DNA of 23,456 bases. It comes from a virus (Duplodnaviria; Heunggongvirae; Uroviricota; Caudoviricetes). The DNA lies in IMG/VR virus record IMGVR_UViG_2526164646_000006; one strand, 5' to 3'. This document shows, one piece after another, positions 3,208 through 7,752 of this stretch (the stretch's first letter is position 1; every line of letters starts with the position of its first letter). The notes under the pieces are model-generated. The model searched no databases. It saw only the letters and a list, made by a program, of their open reading frames with translations, and had not been told where the DNA came from. The position numbers and the translations under genes are program-made.

Positions 3208-3756
3208 TTATTTAGCTAACTTTTTCCAGATCGCTGAAACGTATTTGGCTTGGTGAATGGCATCATCAAGAGCGTTGTGGCGAGTTCCTTTGAATGGCAT
3301 ATCTCGCTTAGGGTCGAATCCTATTGCCTTCCCAAGTTCGACGATTGTTCTTACGTCGCGGTCATTCCACCACTGCCACGGAACTGGCTGCCCTGTCAGC
3401 GAATAACTGTTGCGGAGAATAACGCAGTCAAATGATGCTCCATTCCCCCAAACCTGAACGAATTTGTGGTTAGCGTTCTTTATGATGAATTCAGATAACC
3501 ATGAAAGAGCCGTTGAAAGCTCCTGAGTGTTGCTGGTTAGCGATTTCCTGGCTTCTTCACTCTGTTCCAGCCACCATAAAATCGTTGAAGCGTCAGGACG
3601 CGCTCGATATCGCATTGATGATTCAAGCGAGATATTTACCGAGAACTCTTCTCCTGTTTCTCCGGTATTCGGGTCAAAGAATACCGCCCCAATAGAAATA
3701 ACTGGCGCGTATGGCCCGTTGCCCATTGTTTCAAGGTCAACCATCAAGTGATTCAT
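3208..3756 (-). CDS. DnaQ-like DEDDh 3'-5' exonuclease
   Basis: Motifs DLETMG, FD and HNALDDA in the translation; sits beside SSB and the annealase. Confidence 0.75.
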   Translation of the reverse strand: MNHLMVDLETMGNGPYAPVISIGAVFFDPNTGETGEEFSVNISLESSMRYRARPDASTILWWLEQSEEARKSLTSNTQELSTALSWLSEFIIKNANHKFVQVWGNGASFDCVILRNSYSLTGQPVPWQWWNDRDVRTIVELGKAIGFDPKRDMPFKGTRHNALDDAIHQAKYVSAIWKKLAK

Positions 3757-5087: not shown

Positions 5088-5246
5088 TTATGGCGATACC
5101 AGAGAGCTTTCTGCGTGTACATGCGTCTCTGTAACTTGCTCTCCTTCACTGTGGTTGCAAGTGACATGAATATCTCCTTCGTTACCGATTAATTCTTTCA
5201 TATGACGAATGAATTCTTCGTCTGACCAGTTATCTGTAAAACTCAT
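5088..5246 (-). CDS. small hypothetical protein (52 aa)
   Basis: ATG at 5246 overlaps the Kil-like stop (ATGA). Confidence 0.3.
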   Translation of the reverse strand: MSFTDNWSDEEFIRHMKELIGNEGDIHVTCNHSEGEQVTETHVHAESSLVSP

Positions 5247-5395
5247 TTCCTGCGACACCACGGAAGGTTGATAGCTGATTTCATCGCTTTATTTGCTTCA
5301 AGCCACATTTTTGAATCACCAATAAATCTGGCTATTACTGCTTTGTTCTGTGCAGCACGAAGCATCTGATGATTTATGGCTATTTCATTGCGCAT
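5243..5395 (-). CDS. kil: Kil-like small protein (50 aa)
   Basis: Translation MRNEIAINHQMLRAAQNKAVIARFIGDSKMW... with position immediately downstream of cIII. Confidence 0.45.
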   Translation of the reverse strand: MRNEIAINHQMLRAAQNKAVIARFIGDSKMWLEANKAMKSAINLPWCRRK

Positions 5396-5511
5396 AATAA
5401 GACCTCAACTCTTTTCCATCCGTCACGTAATTTACGGGTGATTCGTTCAAGTAAAGATTCATTTAGTTGGAAGGCACCCATGCGAGCGCCTCCCGCGATT
5501 GCGTAAATCAT
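5380..5511 (-). CDS. cIII: CIII-like small protein (43 aa)
   Basis: Contains ESLLERITRKLRDGWKR, matching the lambda CIII core as recalled; AAGGAA RBS. Confidence 0.7.
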   Translation of the reverse strand: MIYAIAGGARMGAFQLNESLLERITRKLRDGWKRVEVLLCAMK

Positions 5512-5535: not shown

Positions 5536-6504
5536 TTAGTAGGTTATTTTTGTTGCGAATACTTCGCCTTTTACGATGGCTGTTATGATATTTTTAGCAA
5601 CATCTTCTGATGCACCAACCTTGATAAGGTCAGCAAGTATTTTGTTATTTACTTCTTTCCGGTGAGCTTTATCCTTTGCTCTACGCTCTTCTTCTTCCTT
5701 GATTCTTTTTTCTTCTGCTATTCTGGCTTGCTCTTTTGCTTCAGCATCGCGACGGATTCGTTCAGCCTCCTCCTGTGCTTTTCTGCGTTCTGCTTCAATT
5801 GCTGCCTGCTTTTCTCTTTCAGCTCGTTCTGCTGCCTCTTTTGCTTCGCGCTGTGCTCGCTGCTCGGCTTCAATGCGTTCACGCTCTGCACGTTCCGCTG
5901 CGGCCTTAGCTTCTGCTTCTCGCCTTGCTGCTGCTTCAATTTCGGCTTTTGCCTTTGCTTCGGCTTCTGCTCTGGCTTTCTCTTCAGCTTCTCTTTTTAA
6001 GCGTTCTTCATGCTCTCGCTTTTCCTGCTCCGCTTTGAGTCTTGCCTCTTCTCTTTGGCGGTCAAATTCGCGATCCATCAAAATAGCTATTTCATGGTCA
6101 GACTCAATTTGCTTTGCGAGAGCTTCAGCTGCTGCCTTAGCTTCTTCTTCGGCTTTAATCCGCGCCTGTTCTTCCTCATAATCAGTAAGAGGCTGGCGCG
6201 CCTTGGCTTTCAGTTCATCAAGGCGATCGCGCACTGTCTTGCGGTTAGCATCAATTAGCTTTGGAATTTCCTTCAGTTCAGCAACAAGGTCTTTGCCAAG
6301 ACCATCGAGATATGTTTTCGTCTGCGCAACTTTATACGCCAGAGAAGCGATCTCCTTTCTGCCCTTTGCCGTTGTGATATCAGGCACAAAGGACATAACT
6401 TCACGTTCAACCTTTTGAAGGATTTCTTCAATCTGGTCGGCAGACTGAAATACAGTCATTGCATTTGCTTTTTCAATAACAACTAAATCTGTTACTTCAC
6501 TCAT
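5536..6504 (-). CDS. charged coiled-coil protein with E/A/K/R-rich low-complexity core (322 aa)
   Basis: ATG at 6504 with GGAGGA RBS; long AEAKAKAE/ERAERE repetitive segment. Confidence 0.6.
   Translation of the reverse strand: MSEVTDLVVIEKANAMTVFQSADQIEEILQKVEREVMSFVPDITTAKGRKEIASLAYKVAQTKTYLDGLGKDLVAELKEIPKLIDANRKTVRDRLDELKAKARQPLTDYEEEQARIKAEEEAKAAAEALAKQIESDHEIAILMDREFDRQREEARLKAEQEKREHEERLKREAEEKARAEAEAKAKAEIEAAARREAEAKAAAERAERERIEAEQRAQREAKEAAERAEREKQAAIEAERRKAQEEAERIRRDAEAKEQARIAEEKRIKEEEERRAKDKAHRKEVNNKILADLIKVGASEDVAKNIITAIVKGEVFATKITY
5607..6117 (-). repeat. imperfect short tandem repeats encoding the E/A/K/R-rich segment
   Basis: Recurrent gcttctgc/ttcggcttc-type units on the plus strand; produces low-complexity shadow ORFs in other frames. 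Confidence 0.5.
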
Positions 6505-6514
6505 ATATCCTCCG

Positions 6515-6545
6515 TCAAAAAAATTGCCCTCACACTGGAGGGCAA
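6515..6545 (-). terminator. intrinsic terminator just upstream of the coiled-coil gene
   Basis: Minus-strand 8-bp stem (6524-6531 / 6538-6545) with 6-nt loop followed by a U-run (plus-strand A-run 6515-6523). Confidence 0.5.
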
Positions 6546-6679
6546 AGAAGATTTCCAATAATCAGAACAAGTCGGCTCCTGTTTAGTTACGAGCGACATT
6601 GCTCCGTGTATTCACTCGTTGGAATGAATACACAGTGCAGTGTTTATTCTGTTGTTTATGCCAAAAATAAAGGCCACCG

Positions 6680-6880
6680 TCAGGCAGCCTTGTTGTTCAG
6701 TTTACCAAGTTCTCTGGCAATCATTGCCGTCGTTCGTATTGCCCATTTATCGACATATTTCCCATCTTCCATTACAGGAAACATTTCTTCAGGCTTAACC
6801 ATGCATTCCGATTGCAGCTTGCATCCATTGCATCGCTTGAATTGTCCACACCATTGATTTTTATCAATGGTCGTAGTCAT
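6680..6880 (-). CDS. ral: Ral restriction-alleviation protein
   Basis: 66-aa translation MTTTIDKNQWCGQFKRCNGCKLQSECMVKPEEMFPVMEDGKYVDKWAIRTTAMIARELGK matches lambda Ral as recalled. Confidence 0.9.
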   Translation of the reverse strand: MTTTIDKNQWCGQFKRCNGCKLQSECMVKPEEMFPVMEDGKYVDKWAIRTTAMIARELGKLNNKAA

Positions 6881-6950
6881 ACGGATAGTCCTGGTATTGT
6901 TCCATCACATCCTGAGGATGCTCTTCGAACTCTTCAAATTCTTCTTCCAT
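6864..6950 (-). CDS. small acidic ORF (28 aa) between N and ral
   Basis: MEEEFEEFEEHPQDVMEQYQDYPYDYDH; stop overlaps ral start. Confidence 0.4.
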   Translation of the reverse strand: MEEEFEEFEEHPQDVMEQYQDYPYDYDH

Positions 6951-6958
6951 ATATCACC

Positions 6959-7285
6959 TCAAATAAGTGGTTTGCTGCCTAATTTCATTTTCTGGCGACC
7001 AACACAAGTCACACCCATTTCACTGCGTGGCTTGCTGTACCATGTGCGCTGATTCTTGCGCTCAATACGCTGCAGGTTGCTTTCAATCTGTTCGTGGTAT
7101 TCAGCCAGCACCGTAAGGTCTATCGGATTCAGTGCGCTTTCTACTCGTGATTTCGGTTTGCGATTCAGCGAGAGAATAGGGCGGTTAACTGGTTTTGCGC
7201 TTACCCCAACCAACAGGGGATTTGCTGCTTTCCATTGAGCCTGTTTCTCTGCGCGACGTTCGCGGCGGCGTGTTTGAGAGTCCAT
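6959..7285 (-). CDS. N: N transcription antitermination protein
   Basis: 108 aa; MDSQTRRRERRAEKQAQWKAANPLL... arginine-rich motif and near identity to lambda N as recalled; GAGGA RBS. Confidence 0.95.
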   Translation of the reverse strand: MDSQTRRRERRAEKQAQWKAANPLLVGVSAKPVNRPILSLNRKPKSRVESALNPIDLTVLAEYHEQIESNLQRIERKNQRTWYSKPRSEMGVTCVGRQKMKLGSKPLI

Positions 7286-7326
7286 ATATCATCCTCAGAT
7301 AAATGGCCCCTCAGCGGGGCCGACAG

Positions 7327-7455
7327 TTATTGGCAGGTTGCGTACTTGCTGATGCAGGAGAAGATTTCCACGATTCGCGTCATTGTTGTTTCAGGACGCT
7401 TTGCTTCATCACGCATTGACTTCAACCAAGCCATAAAGTGTTCGTTATGTTTCAT
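7327..7455 (-). CDS. small ORF (42-44 aa) in the N leader
   Basis: ATG at 7455 six nt after AGGAG (second ATG at 7461); ends 40 nt before N. Confidence 0.3.
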   Translation of the reverse strand: MKHNEHFMAWLKSMRDEAKRPETTMTRIVEIFSCISKYATCQ

Positions 7456-7473
7456 GTTCATCTCCTGTCAGTT

Positions 7474-7703
7474 AGCTTTGGTGGTGTGGTGGCTGGTAGT
7501 CTAGCTCCAGCTTGTTGAGTCTCATTCGGAGGGGTATAACCGGCACCCCAGCGATTTTTCCATGCGACAACGTGCGCGTTATGGCGGCCTTATCGCCCGC
7601 GGCTCCCCATCTCGTCCACGCTATTGCTAGCGTTGGGAGCGCTTCACCGCTCAACAGTAGGTAAGCACTTGCCAGTGACTAGCTGGCTTCACCACACCCC
7701 AAA
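7474..7703 (-). promoter_or_regulatory. N-leader long-range inverted repeat, candidate RNase III-type regulatory stem
   Basis: About 30-nt imperfect inverted repeats at 7474-7510 and 7668-7703 enclosing a GC-rich segment with local hairpins. Confidence 0.45.
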
Positions 7704-7722
7704 GCCTTCTGCTTTGAATGCT

Positions 7723-7752
7723 GCCCTTCTTCAGGGCTTAATTTTTAAGAGC
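7723..7752 (-). promoter_or_regulatory. nutL (boxA + boxB)
   Basis: Minus strand reads GCTCTTAAAAATTAA then GCCCTGAAGAAGGGC. Confidence 0.85.

What the first reader, a model, noticed from the sequence alone, without database searches (positions are those of the whole stretch)
5536..6545. Repetitive charged coiled-coil protein immediately behind an intrinsic terminator
A 322-aa protein with a long E/A/K/R repeat core (encoded by imperfect DNA repeats, 5607-6117) starts 4 nt after a hairpin and U-run terminator on the same strand. Expression would therefore depend on N antitermination. Its function is unknown, and the repeat DNA could also promote slippage and length variation.
Basis: partly seen in the sequence, partly recalled or inferred. 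Interest (0 to 1): 0.45.

Follow-up and report, generated by a model that had tools for sequence, protein, structure and literature searches.

The report
Phage rod protein behind PreS terminator
This is an ordinary, already annotated piece of a lambda-like prophage: a 322-residue early protein of unknown function, built around a long charged helical rod, sits directly behind the known lambda terminator tL2a, which is also the 3' end of the phage small RNA PreS.

Summary
On the minus strand, a 322-aa ORF (6504 to 5536) follows an 8-bp GC hairpin and a U7 run (6545-6517).

Both features are already known. The hairpin and U-run, and the whole ral-proximal spacer, are almost identical to lambda. 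This is terminator tL2a, recently shown to be the 3' end of the Hfq-dependent sRNA PreS/LPR1. Identity to lambda stops exactly after the U-run, which marks a mosaic joint. There the gene replaces lambda ea10.

The gene is 98-99% identical to Sf6 gene 33 and its HK544, mEp234 and CUS-3 homologues (PHROG 1376, unknown function). It occurs in about 10% of complete E. coli genomes. The NCBI name "TolA" is a composition artefact.

The protein has three parts:
- a conserved ~118-aa N-domain;
- a charged, Ala-rich helix with hendecad rather than heptad periodicity (ER/K-like);
- a conserved ~40-aa C-domain.

Close alleles differ only by in-frame indels inside the rod (+11 to -77 aa), at short direct repeats. 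The predicted length variation therefore exists.

Dependence on N follows from homology (lambda-type N, nutL, two terminators) and was not tested. Function remains unknown; a spacer or tether role in the early programme is my best guess. Interest is low.

The parts
5536..6504 (-). CDS, 322 aa plus stop. Sf6 gene-33 / PHROG 1376 family early protein, misnamed 'TolA' by NCBI.
   Evidence: Translation. PHROG 1376 E = 8e-110 over the full length. 98-99% DNA identity to HK544, mEp234, CUS-3 and Sf6 gene 33. Present in 530 of 5426 complete E. coli genomes.
6151..6504 (-). Conserved N-terminal helical domain (aa 1-118).
   Evidence: phmmer with aa 1-125: 5002 clusters at E <= 1e-3 and 3562 at E <= 1e-10. 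Invariant residues are F19, R49, K63, G70, K71, K78, D85, R88, L95, P105 and E110. AF2 helices 12-20, 22-37 and 46 onward, pLDDT 83-90.
5659..6150 (-). Charged Ala-rich helical rod (aa 119-282), ER/K-like with hendecad periodicity; about 26 nm if fully helical.
   Evidence: One continuous helix in both AF2 models, pLDDT about 90 or higher. Composition, a/d occupancy and salt-bridge excess (91 against 56 +/- 5.7). Periodicity of 3.67 residues.
5770..6132 (-). Indel-prone part of the rod (aa about 125-245), where all natural length variants map.
   Evidence: Alignment of 19 alleles. DNA junctions with 5-11-nt microhomology and a 33-nt tandem duplication.
5539..5658 (-). Conserved C-terminal domain (aa 283-322), consensus HRkxINxxAxxxLxxxGxxExxAKxxxxAIAxGxIxxVxIxY, ending in a near-invariant Tyr.
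6509..6513 (-). Shine-Dalgarno GGAGG, starting 4 nt after the U-run and 4 nt before the ATG.
   Evidence: Read directly from the sequence.
6517..6545 (-). Intrinsic terminator tL2a: 8-bp stem, 6-nt loop and U7. Also the Hfq-type 3' module of sRNA PreS.
   Evidence: Scan. One substitution and one extra U relative to lambda. Annotated 'tL2A' in Sf6. Identified as the LPR1/PreS 3' end in bioRxiv 10.1101/2024.10.31.621285.
6517..6605 (-). Predicted PreS (LPR1) sRNA, about 89 nt. The 5' end is approximate; a processed ~68-nt form would start near 6585.
   Evidence: The 88-nt lambda sequence upstream of and including tL2a is identical except G->A in the stem and one extra U. Sizes come from the northern blots in the preprint.
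6670..6691 (-). Second terminator-like hairpin, overlapping the ral stop codon.
   Evidence: conserved with lambda.
6680..6880 (-). ral (66 aa), lambda allele.
   Evidence: PF11058, 162 bits. Near-identical to lambda.
6959..7285 (-). Lambda-type antiterminator N (108 aa).
   Evidence: PF11438, 90 bits.
7723..7737 (-). nutL boxB (GCCCUGAAGAAGGGC), with boxA-like GGCUCUUA upstream.
   Evidence: The match to lambda nutL is from my own knowledge of the lambda sequence.
5380..5511 (-). cIII (43 aa, Sf6 type), 24 nt downstream of the gene.
   Evidence: Synteny with Sf6 and mEp234. Core 48 nt identical to lambda cIII.
5243..5395 (-). kil (50 aa).
   Evidence: PF06301, 72.6 bits.

Best explanation
The window is the early-left (pL) operon of a mosaic Sf6/P22-like lambdoid prophage of E. 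coli.

**The terminator.** The hairpin and U-run in front of the gene is lambda terminator tL2a. In lambda it forms the Hfq-binding 3' end of the lytic-cycle sRNA PreS (LPR1), which boosts host dnaN translation and represses alaS. The window carries an essentially identical PreS (about 6605-6517, minus strand).

**The mosaic joint.** Similarity to lambda ends exactly at the last U. There, the gene studied here replaces lambda ea10. It belongs to the Sf6 gene-33 / PHROG 1376 family.

**Expression.** Transcripts that stop at tL2a end before the gene's ribosome-binding site. The protein should therefore be made only from pL transcripts that read through, which means N-modified polymerase. This makes it a delayed-early, lytic-cycle product. 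(Inferred.)

**The protein.** It is soluble and acidic (36.8 kDa). A conserved helical N-domain and a small conserved C-domain are held apart by a single long, highly charged, Ala-rich helix of about 170 residues (about 26 nm). This helix has ER/K-type i/i+4 salt-bridge density and 11/3 (hendecad) apolar periodicity, not heptads.

**Length variation.** The reiterated GAA/GCN/CGN/AAR codons offer short direct repeats. Recombination or slippage between them produces in-frame rod-length alleles of 245-333 aa.

**Proposed role.** The protein most likely acts as a rigid spacer or tether linking two partners during the early DNA-metabolism and host-takeover programme. It is always encoded just upstream of cIII, kil and the recombinase/SSB module. 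The partners are unknown. (Inferred, weakest step.)
For: **Shown by tools**
- ORF, hairpin, U-run and Shine-Dalgarno sequence.
- The ral-to-U-run stretch is near-identical to lambda, Sf6 and mEp234, and the break in identity falls exactly after the U-run.
- Sf6 annotates the hairpin as 'homology to lambda tL2A' plus boundary sequence bsq4. mEp234 annotates two rho-independent terminators.
- Lambda-type N, nutL, ral, cIII, kil, Rad52-like recombinase, SSB and Abc2 are all on the same strand.
- The protein matches PHROG 1376 over its full length.
- The same gene order holds in Sf6, mEp234 and HK633, in the natural alleles, and in 30 loci from many genera: gene, then 1-3 small ORFs, then Erf/RecT/Rad52/Sak4 with SSB or an exonuclease.
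- Three-part architecture is conserved across 85 diverse members, 256-387 aa long.
- AF2 gives one long helix, mean pLDDT 90 for the 245-aa allele.
- There is no transmembrane segment (maximum Kyte-Doolittle score 1.03) and the pI is 5.5.
- Alleles and their DNA junctions are.

**From the literature**
- LPR1/PreS lies between ral and ea10. Its 3' end is tL2a. It is expressed in the lytic cycle only, is Hfq-dependent, up-regulates dnaN, and is conserved in 2,537 genomes (bioRxiv 10.1101/2024.10.31.621285).

**Inferred**
- N dependence.
- The spacer/tether role.
Against: - The synteny with recombination genes may only reflect the general layout of lambdoid pL operons.
- PreS accumulates in the lytic cycle, when N is present. 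Termination or processing at tL2a is therefore only partly suppressed, and the degree of N dependence of the downstream gene is unknown.
- A weak promoter between 6517 and 6700 cannot be excluded by a consensus scan.
- The oligomeric state of the rod (single helix or hendecad dimer) cannot be decided from sequence.
- The 245-aa allele lacks the conserved DHEIAILM..FDR patch, so not every part of the rod is needed, if that allele is functional.
Confidence: 0.6

Rival explanations
1. The protein is a genuine TolA homologue or mimic, acting at the cell envelope (for example by interfering with the Tol-Pal system, colicin entry or phage entry), as the NCBI product name 'cell envelope biogenesis protein TolA' implies.
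For: NCBI/PGAP names most family members TolA. The E/A/K-rich helix resembles TolA domain II in composition.
Against: - TIGR02794 (tolA_full) scores 8.6 bits against a cutoff of 59.45, at E = 0.98.
- There is no N-terminal membrane anchor; the maximum hydrophobic window scores 1.03.
- No TolA C-terminal domain or any other Pfam hit was found.
- The gene lies behind terminators in the lytic pL operon. It is therefore not expected in lysogens, where an exclusion function would act.
Confidence: 0.02
2. The protein is an anti-defence or host-takeover factor, like its neighbours Ral, cIII, Kil and Abc2. It would bind and neutralise a host protein, possibly an SMC/Rad50-like or other long-helix defence or repair complex. 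Rod-length polymorphism would then be driven by an arms race.
For: - It occupies the accessory slot between ral and cIII, where lambda carries a different gene, ea10.
- Its neighbours are host-directed inhibitors.
- Length alleles segregate in natural populations.
- There is a very weak LmuB-like match in PADLOC, E = 0.031.
Against: - The N-domain is unusually conserved and widespread for a counter-defence gene: 50-60% identity across genera and more than 5000 clusters.
- 322 aa is by far the dominant allele: 70 of 77 IMG/VR loci, and one NCBI cluster of 471 members.
- The PADLOC hit is compositional and far from significant.
- No defence system is known to be inhibited by this family.
Confidence: 0.2
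3. The central region is a canonical left-handed, heptad-based dimeric coiled coil, so the protein is a structural or scaffolding fibre.
Against: - Best-register a/d hydrophobic occupancy is 0.12-0.25 over aa 155-280.
- There is no 3.5-residue periodicity: z > 2 in 1 of 82 members, against 42 of 82 at 3.67.
- Natural indels are out of heptad phase in 10 of the 11 length classes.
- An early-operon location does not fit a virion or scaffold role.
Confidence: 0.08
4. The hairpin is only a chance or decorative structure, and the gene has its own promoter, so its expression does not depend on N.
For: The fold z-score of the 76-nt region is only -1.56. Terminator-like sites are common in this region, 10 found against 5.4 expected.
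Against: - The hairpin is conserved nearly base for base with lambda tL2a, a mapped termination site and sRNA 3' end.
- No promoter-like site was found on the minus strand between 6504 and 6900.
- The ribosome-binding site starts 4 nt after the U-run, leaving no room for a promoter downstream of the terminator.
Confidence: 0.04

Closest known systems
Lambda terminator tL2a / sRNA PreS (LPR1)
   Same: Position is the same: directly after ral and before the next pL gene. The sequence matches lambda over 88 nt except for one substitution and one extra U. It has the same GC hairpin and poly-U (bioRxiv 10.1101/2024.10.31.621285).
   Different: The stem base is U-A instead of U-G, and there are 7 U instead of 6, making it marginally stronger. 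The gene that follows is not ea10. Expression and Hfq binding were not tested for this prophage.
Shigella phage Sf6 gene 33 and homologues (mEp234_033, HK633_043, CUS-3, IME10 Orf53; 'similar to D3 Orf53'); PHROG 1376
   Same: 98-99% DNA identity, 322 aa, same flanks (tL2a upstream, cIII and kil downstream).
   Different: Essentially nothing; this is the same gene. HK633 carries the -22-aa allele.
Lambda ea10 (the gene behind tL2a in lambda)
   Same: Same slot in the pL operon, starting about 12 nt after the same terminator with a similar GAGGA Shine-Dalgarno sequence.
   Different: The sequence is unrelated and the size differs (122 aa). No homology was found; it is a positional analogue only.
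E. coli TolA domain II
   Same: A long E/A/K-rich helical segment, which is the source of the NCBI name.
   Different: No membrane anchor and no TolA domain III. The TolA HMM scores 8.6 bits against a cutoff of 59. The protein is cytoplasmic.
ER/K single alpha-helix (SAH) domains (myosin VI/X, caldesmon and others) and hendecad right-handed stalks such as the F-ATPase b subunit
   Same: 57% charged residues, a strong excess of i/i+3 and i/i+4 opposite-charge pairs, few large hydrophobic residues, and an apolar (Ala) stripe with an 11/3 period. Such rods work as rigid spacers or stators (my own knowledge).
   Different: No sequence homology. The oligomeric state is unknown. About 25% Ala is higher than in classic ER/K motifs.

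Membership tests
Lambda tL2a terminator / PreS sRNA | Sequence identity to the lambda ral-ea10 intergenic RNA | tested here: met
   The 88-nt lambda segment differs from the window by one substitution and one extra U.
Lambda tL2a terminator / PreS sRNA | GC-rich hairpin followed by poly-U at the 3' end (intrinsic terminator, Hfq-type module) | tested here: met
   8-bp stem with 5 GC pairs, 6-nt loop and U7 at 6545-6517.
Lambda tL2a terminator / PreS sRNA | Location in the pL operon directly downstream of ral | tested here: met
   ral at 6680-6880 (PF11058) and N at 6959-7285.
Lambda tL2a terminator / PreS sRNA | Accumulation as an ~88/68-nt Hfq-bound RNA in the lytic cycle, with regulation of dnaN and alaS | not testable with these tools
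   Shown only for lambda in the preprint.
Sf6 gene 33 / PHROG 1376 family | Full-length match to the family HMM | tested here: met
   phrog_1376 E = 8.4e-110 over residues 1-322. phrog_17211 covers the N-domain and phrog_21365 covers 111-322.
Sf6 gene 33 / PHROG 1376 family | N-domain, charged rod and C-terminal ...I-x-Y domain; position upstream of cIII/kil and the recombination module | tested here: met
TolA (TIGR02794) | HMM score above the curated cutoff | tested here: not met
   8.6 bits against 59.45.
TolA (TIGR02794) | N-terminal transmembrane anchor and C-terminal domain III | tested here: not met
   No hydrophobic segment; maximum Kyte-Doolittle score 1.03. No Pfam domain.
Canonical heptad coiled coil | Hydrophobic residues at a/d positions with 3.5-residue periodicity | tested here: not met
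   a/d occupancy is 0.12-0.25 over aa 155-280. No 3.5 peak in the window protein or in 81 of 82 relatives.
ER/K single alpha-helix | High E/K/R content with excess i/i+4 opposite-charge pairs and few hydrophobic residues | tested here: met
   57% charged residues. 91 pairs against 56 +/- 5.7 in shuffles. 9.8% strong hydrophobic residues.
ER/K single alpha-helix | Monomeric, stable isolated helix in solution | not testable with these tools
   Needs CD, SEC-MALS or SAXS.
Hendecad (11/3) right-handed rod, F-ATPase b-like | Apolar periodicity of 3.67 residues | tested here: inconclusive
   The peak is at 3.68, reached by 5 of 1000 shuffles. z > 2 in 42 of 82 relatives. Dimerisation is untested, and the signal rests mostly on Ala.
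N-dependent delayed-early gene of a lambdoid pL operon | N gene and nutL upstream on the same strand, intrinsic terminator(s) between them and the gene, and no intervening promoter | tested here: met
   Absence of a promoter rests only on a consensus scan.
N-dependent delayed-early gene of a lambdoid pL operon | Loss of expression in N- or nutL- mutants | not testable with these tools
   This is an experiment.

The most novel reading that the evidence does not exclude
The gp33-family protein would be a length-tunable molecular ruler: a hendecad/ER-K rod of 14-28 nm whose natural alleles set the distance between two conserved binding heads. It would also form a functional unit with the PreS sRNA encoded immediately upstream. 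One version: it tethers replication or recombination factors, while Hfq bound at the PreS hairpin and U-tail, 4 nt from the Shine-Dalgarno sequence, gates its translation on read-through mRNA.
Probability: 0.07. Interest if true: 0.55.

Novelty: already known. Interest (0 to 1): 0.22.

Why it matters
It matters little for discovery, because the terminator (tL2a/PreS), the mosaic joint and the gene (Sf6 gene 33) are all in the public record. The practical value is corrective.
- Thousands of database entries call this protein 'TolA', which the HMM score and the missing membrane anchor contradict.
- The 'terminator in front of a gene' is really an sRNA gene, which annotation pipelines and Rfam do not yet capture.
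- A very large phage protein family (more than 5000 clusters at 50% identity, about 10% of complete E. coli genomes) still has no Pfam model, no structure and no function.
- Its non-heptad charged rod and its natural in-frame length alleles make it a tractable small project.

Tried and rejected
**Searches for a function that returned nothing specific**
- Pfam on the full protein, on 87 relatives, and on the isolated N- and C-domains: no family.
- NCBIfam and PADLOC: only sub-threshold compositional hits.
- PHROGs: four families, all 'unknown function'.
- PDB sequence search with the protein and with an N-domain profile: nothing below E = 0.02.
- Foldseek against the PDB: nothing at E <= 0.001.
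- BFVD: only unnamed homologues.
- The AFDB library was unavailable.
- A C-domain profile search for other domain architectures returned only fragments of the same family.
- Literature searches by accession, PHROG id, 'TolA + cIII + kil' and accessory-gene screens found no functional study of the protein.

**Other negative results**
- Rfam at gathering thresholds finds nothing in the window, so PreS is not in Rfam 15.

**Ideas rejected**
- An intramolecular helical hairpin that brings the N- and C-domains together. Natural deletions are not centred on the rod midpoint.
- The plus-strand ORFs 5662-6000 and 5699-6181. These are shadows of the low-complexity codon repeats.
- The apparent fusions of the N-domain to other C-termini (P0130, P0132). 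These look like chimeric assemblies.
Full report
**1. What is in the sequence**

The feature lies on the minus strand. The ORF starts at ATG 6504 and ends with TAA at 5538-5536, giving 322 aa.

Upstream, reading 5'->3' on the minus strand, the order is:
- an 8-bp stem UUGCCCUC/GAGGGCAA (6545-6538 / 6531-6524) with a 6-nt loop;
- seven U (6523-6517);
- GAC;
- the Shine-Dalgarno GGAGG (6513-6509);
- AUAU, then the ATG.

The ribosome-binding site therefore begins 4 nt after the U-run, and the start codon begins 12 nt after it. The consensus scan lists this hairpin, and a second one at 6691-6670.

Residues 109-282 are 28% E, 25% A, 16% R and 10% K.

The 'imperfect DNA repeats' exist only as weak, short codon reiterations. 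TRF scores are 43-48, and repeat families of 27-37 nt show 66-89% identity.

**2. Context**

Pfam identifies these neighbours on the same strand:
- a lambda-type N (6959-7285);
- ral (6680-6880);
- kil (5243-5395);
- a Rad52-like recombinase;
- SSB;
- an Rv2179c-like exonuclease;
- Abc2.

An S24/HTH repressor lies further upstream. A 43-aa cIII sits at 5511-5380. nutL boxB (GCCCUGAAGAAGGGC) is at 7737-7723.

The window as a whole is a mosaic Sf6/P22-like lambdoid prophage. The best phage match, Sf101, covers 52% of it.

**3. The terminator is lambda tL2a, the 3' end of sRNA PreS**

I aligned the ral-to-ATG stretch with lambda, Sf6 and mEp234. From within ral to the last U of the U-run the sequences are nearly identical. 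Immediately after the U-run, lambda (ea10) and the window diverge completely. This is a mosaic joint, and Sf6 annotates it as boundary sequence bsq4.

The Sf6 GenBank record labels the hairpin 'homology to phage lambda; tL2A'. mEp234 annotates both hairpins as rho-independent terminators.

A 2024 preprint (bioRxiv 10.1101/2024.10.31.621285) reports the following for the RNA between ral and ea10:
- It is an Hfq-dependent sRNA, LPR1/PreS, of ~88 nt, processed to ~68 nt.
- Its GC hairpin and poly-U 3' end 'corresponds to ... tL2a'.
- It is made only in the lytic cycle.
- It activates dnaN translation, represses alaS and supports phage DNA replication.
- It is conserved at >=92% identity in 2,537 genomes.

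The window's last 89 nt before the Shine-Dalgarno sequence differ from lambda's 88 nt by one G->A change (turning a U-G pair into U-A) and one extra U. The predicted fold is the same. Rfam 15 has no model for it.

**4. Expression logic (inferred)**

Transcripts that end at tL2a stop 4 nt before the Shine-Dalgarno sequence. No promoter-like site lies between ral and the ATG. The gene should therefore be translated only from pL read-through transcripts.

In lambda, such read-through requires N acting at nutL (established lambda biology, my own knowledge). Both N and nutL are present here. PreS accumulates while N is active, so read-through is not complete.

**5. The gene is known**

- Megablast finds 98-99% identical DNA in HK544, mEp234, CUS-3, IME10, Sf6 (gene 33), Sf101 and many Stx phages.
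- The gene occurs in 530 of 5426 complete E. coli genomes.
- It matches PHROG 1376 over its full length, a family of unknown function.
- PGAP calls it 'cell envelope biogenesis protein TolA'. However, the TolA HMM scores 8.6 bits against a cutoff of 59.45. There is no hydrophobic anchor and no Pfam domain. The name is an artefact of E/A/K composition.

**6. Family and architecture**

- A phmmer search with residues 1-125 against 1.84 billion representatives gives 5002 clusters at E <= 1e-3 and 3562 at E <= 1e-10.
- Members are typically 256-387 aa long. All share the same plan: the N-domain, a charged stretch of variable length, and a ~45-aa C-terminal domain ending ...I-x-Y.
- AlphaFold2 on the natural 245-aa allele, with an 87-sequence alignment, gives mean pLDDT 90. 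It predicts two short helices, one uninterrupted helix from residue 46 to 218, and a short C-terminal helix.
- No solved or predicted structure with a known function resembles the end domains.

**7. The rod is not a heptad coiled coil**

- Over residues 155-280, the best-register a/d hydrophobic occupancy is 0.12-0.25.
- Opposite-charge i/i+3 and i/i+4 pairs number 91, against 56 +/- 5.7 in shuffles. This is an ER/K single-helix signature.
- The apolar (Ala plus ILVMF) pattern peaks at 3.68 residues. Only 5 of 1000 shuffles reach this value, and nothing is seen at 3.5.
- In 82 diverse relatives, z > 2 at 11/3 in 42 cases and at 7/2 in 1 case.

This is a hendecad-type or single-helix rod. If fully helical it is about 26 nm long in the 322-aa form and about 14.5 nm in the 245-aa form. 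Whether it is monomeric or a hendecad dimer cannot be decided here.

**8. Length polymorphism**

- Alleles at least 98% identical in aligned columns differ by in-frame indels of +11, -13, -16, -18, -20, -22, -26, -32, -47, -53 and -77 aa.
- All indels lie within residues ~125-245. The two end domains never change length.
- At the DNA level, the -22, -47 and -77 deletions lie between direct repeats with 5-11 nt of exact microhomology, and longer imperfect homology beyond that. The +11 allele is a perfect 33-nt tandem duplication.
- The 322-aa form dominates: 70 of 77 IMG/VR loci and one NCBI cluster of 471 members.
- The recurrent variants (245 and 300 aa) and the 333-aa allele keep the 11-residue phase, whereas most singletons do not. 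Five of 11 fall within 35 degrees (binomial P = 0.045). The events are not independent, so this is only a hint.

**9. Synteny beyond E. coli**

I examined 30 loci from Erwinia, Yersinia, Providencia, Proteus, Morganella, Xenorhabdus, Klebsiella/Raoultella, Methylococcaceae, Chitinilyticum, Thiohalocapsa and others, plus more distant IMG/VR loci.
- The gene sits on the same strand 5-13 genes after a cI-like repressor.
- It is followed, after 1-3 small ORFs, by Erf, RecT, Rad52-like or Sak4-type recombinases with SSB or an exonuclease.

This fits an early DNA-metabolism or host-takeover role, but it may simply reflect pL operon architecture.

**10. Verdict**

Both elements are already known, so the arrangement is ordinary for lambdoid phages.

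New here are:
- the link of the hairpin to PreS in this prophage;
- rejection of the TolA name;
- the non-heptad, hendecad/ER-K nature of the rod;
- documentation of natural in-frame rod-length alleles.

The protein's function remains unknown. My best guess is a rigid spacer or tether between two partners in the early lytic programme. I put that at roughly one in four, against an anti-defence role at about one in five. Confidence in the identity of the terminator and gene is about 0.9.

Noticed in passing
window 7461-7720 (minus strand): A ~260-nt untranslated leader lies between nutL boxB and the N region. It is 100% identical in Sf6, HK544, HK633, mEp213, Sf101 and others, and is unannotated there. 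No Rfam family matches.
   Followed up: partly
window 7305-7455 (minus strand): A 42-aa ORF (MKHNEHFMAWLKSMRDEAKRPETTMTRIVEIFSCISKYATCQ, 7455-7327) and a GC hairpin without a U-run (7321-7305) are inserted just upstream of the lambda-type N Shine-Dalgarno sequence. There is no megablast match in the phage collection. Only 6 of 5426 E. coli genomes cover at least 80% of the 6900-7470 query that spans N and this insert, and they annotate the ORF as 'hypothetical protein'.
   Followed up: partly
window 6670-6691 (minus strand): A second terminator-like hairpin (9-bp stem, then UAUUUUUGG) overlaps the ral stop codon. It is conserved with lambda and annotated as rho-independent in mEp234. PreS thus sits between two terminators.
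   Followed up: partly
window 6495-6570 (minus strand): In the minimum-free-energy fold, AUCUUCU just 5' of the terminator stem pairs with the gene's Shine-Dalgarno GGAGGAU. This would sequester the ribosome-binding site on read-through mRNA. The z-score is only -1.56, so it may be chance.
   Followed up: no
protein P0121 (222 aa; found): The family N-domain (aa 1-124, 100% identical to the window) is fused to an Ead/Ea22-like C-terminus. This is either a natural deletion that fuses two pL-operon rod proteins or an assembly artefact. P0130 and P0132 look like chimeric assemblies.
   Followed up: partly
loci L090-L115, 2-3 genes upstream of the family gene; also L012, L015, L085: A conserved ~75-aa ORF family (MSKETGGPAFP...ADAMLKAR) recurs just upstream of this gene in 11 of 30 distant prophages. 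It has no Pfam match and is absent from this window.
   Followed up: partly
window 3208-3756 (minus strand): A 182-aa Rv2179c-like 3'-5' exonuclease (PF16473, 248 bits) lies between SSB and the Abc2 anti-RecBCD gene inside the recombination module.
   Followed up: no
window 5380-5511 compared with lambda cIII: The cIII allele is the divergent Sf6 type. Only a 48-nt core (GAATCTTTACTTGAACGAATCACCCGTAAATTACGTGACGGATGGAAA) is identical to lambda. The two terminator-like elements that lambda has between ea10 and cIII are absent here.
   Followed up: no
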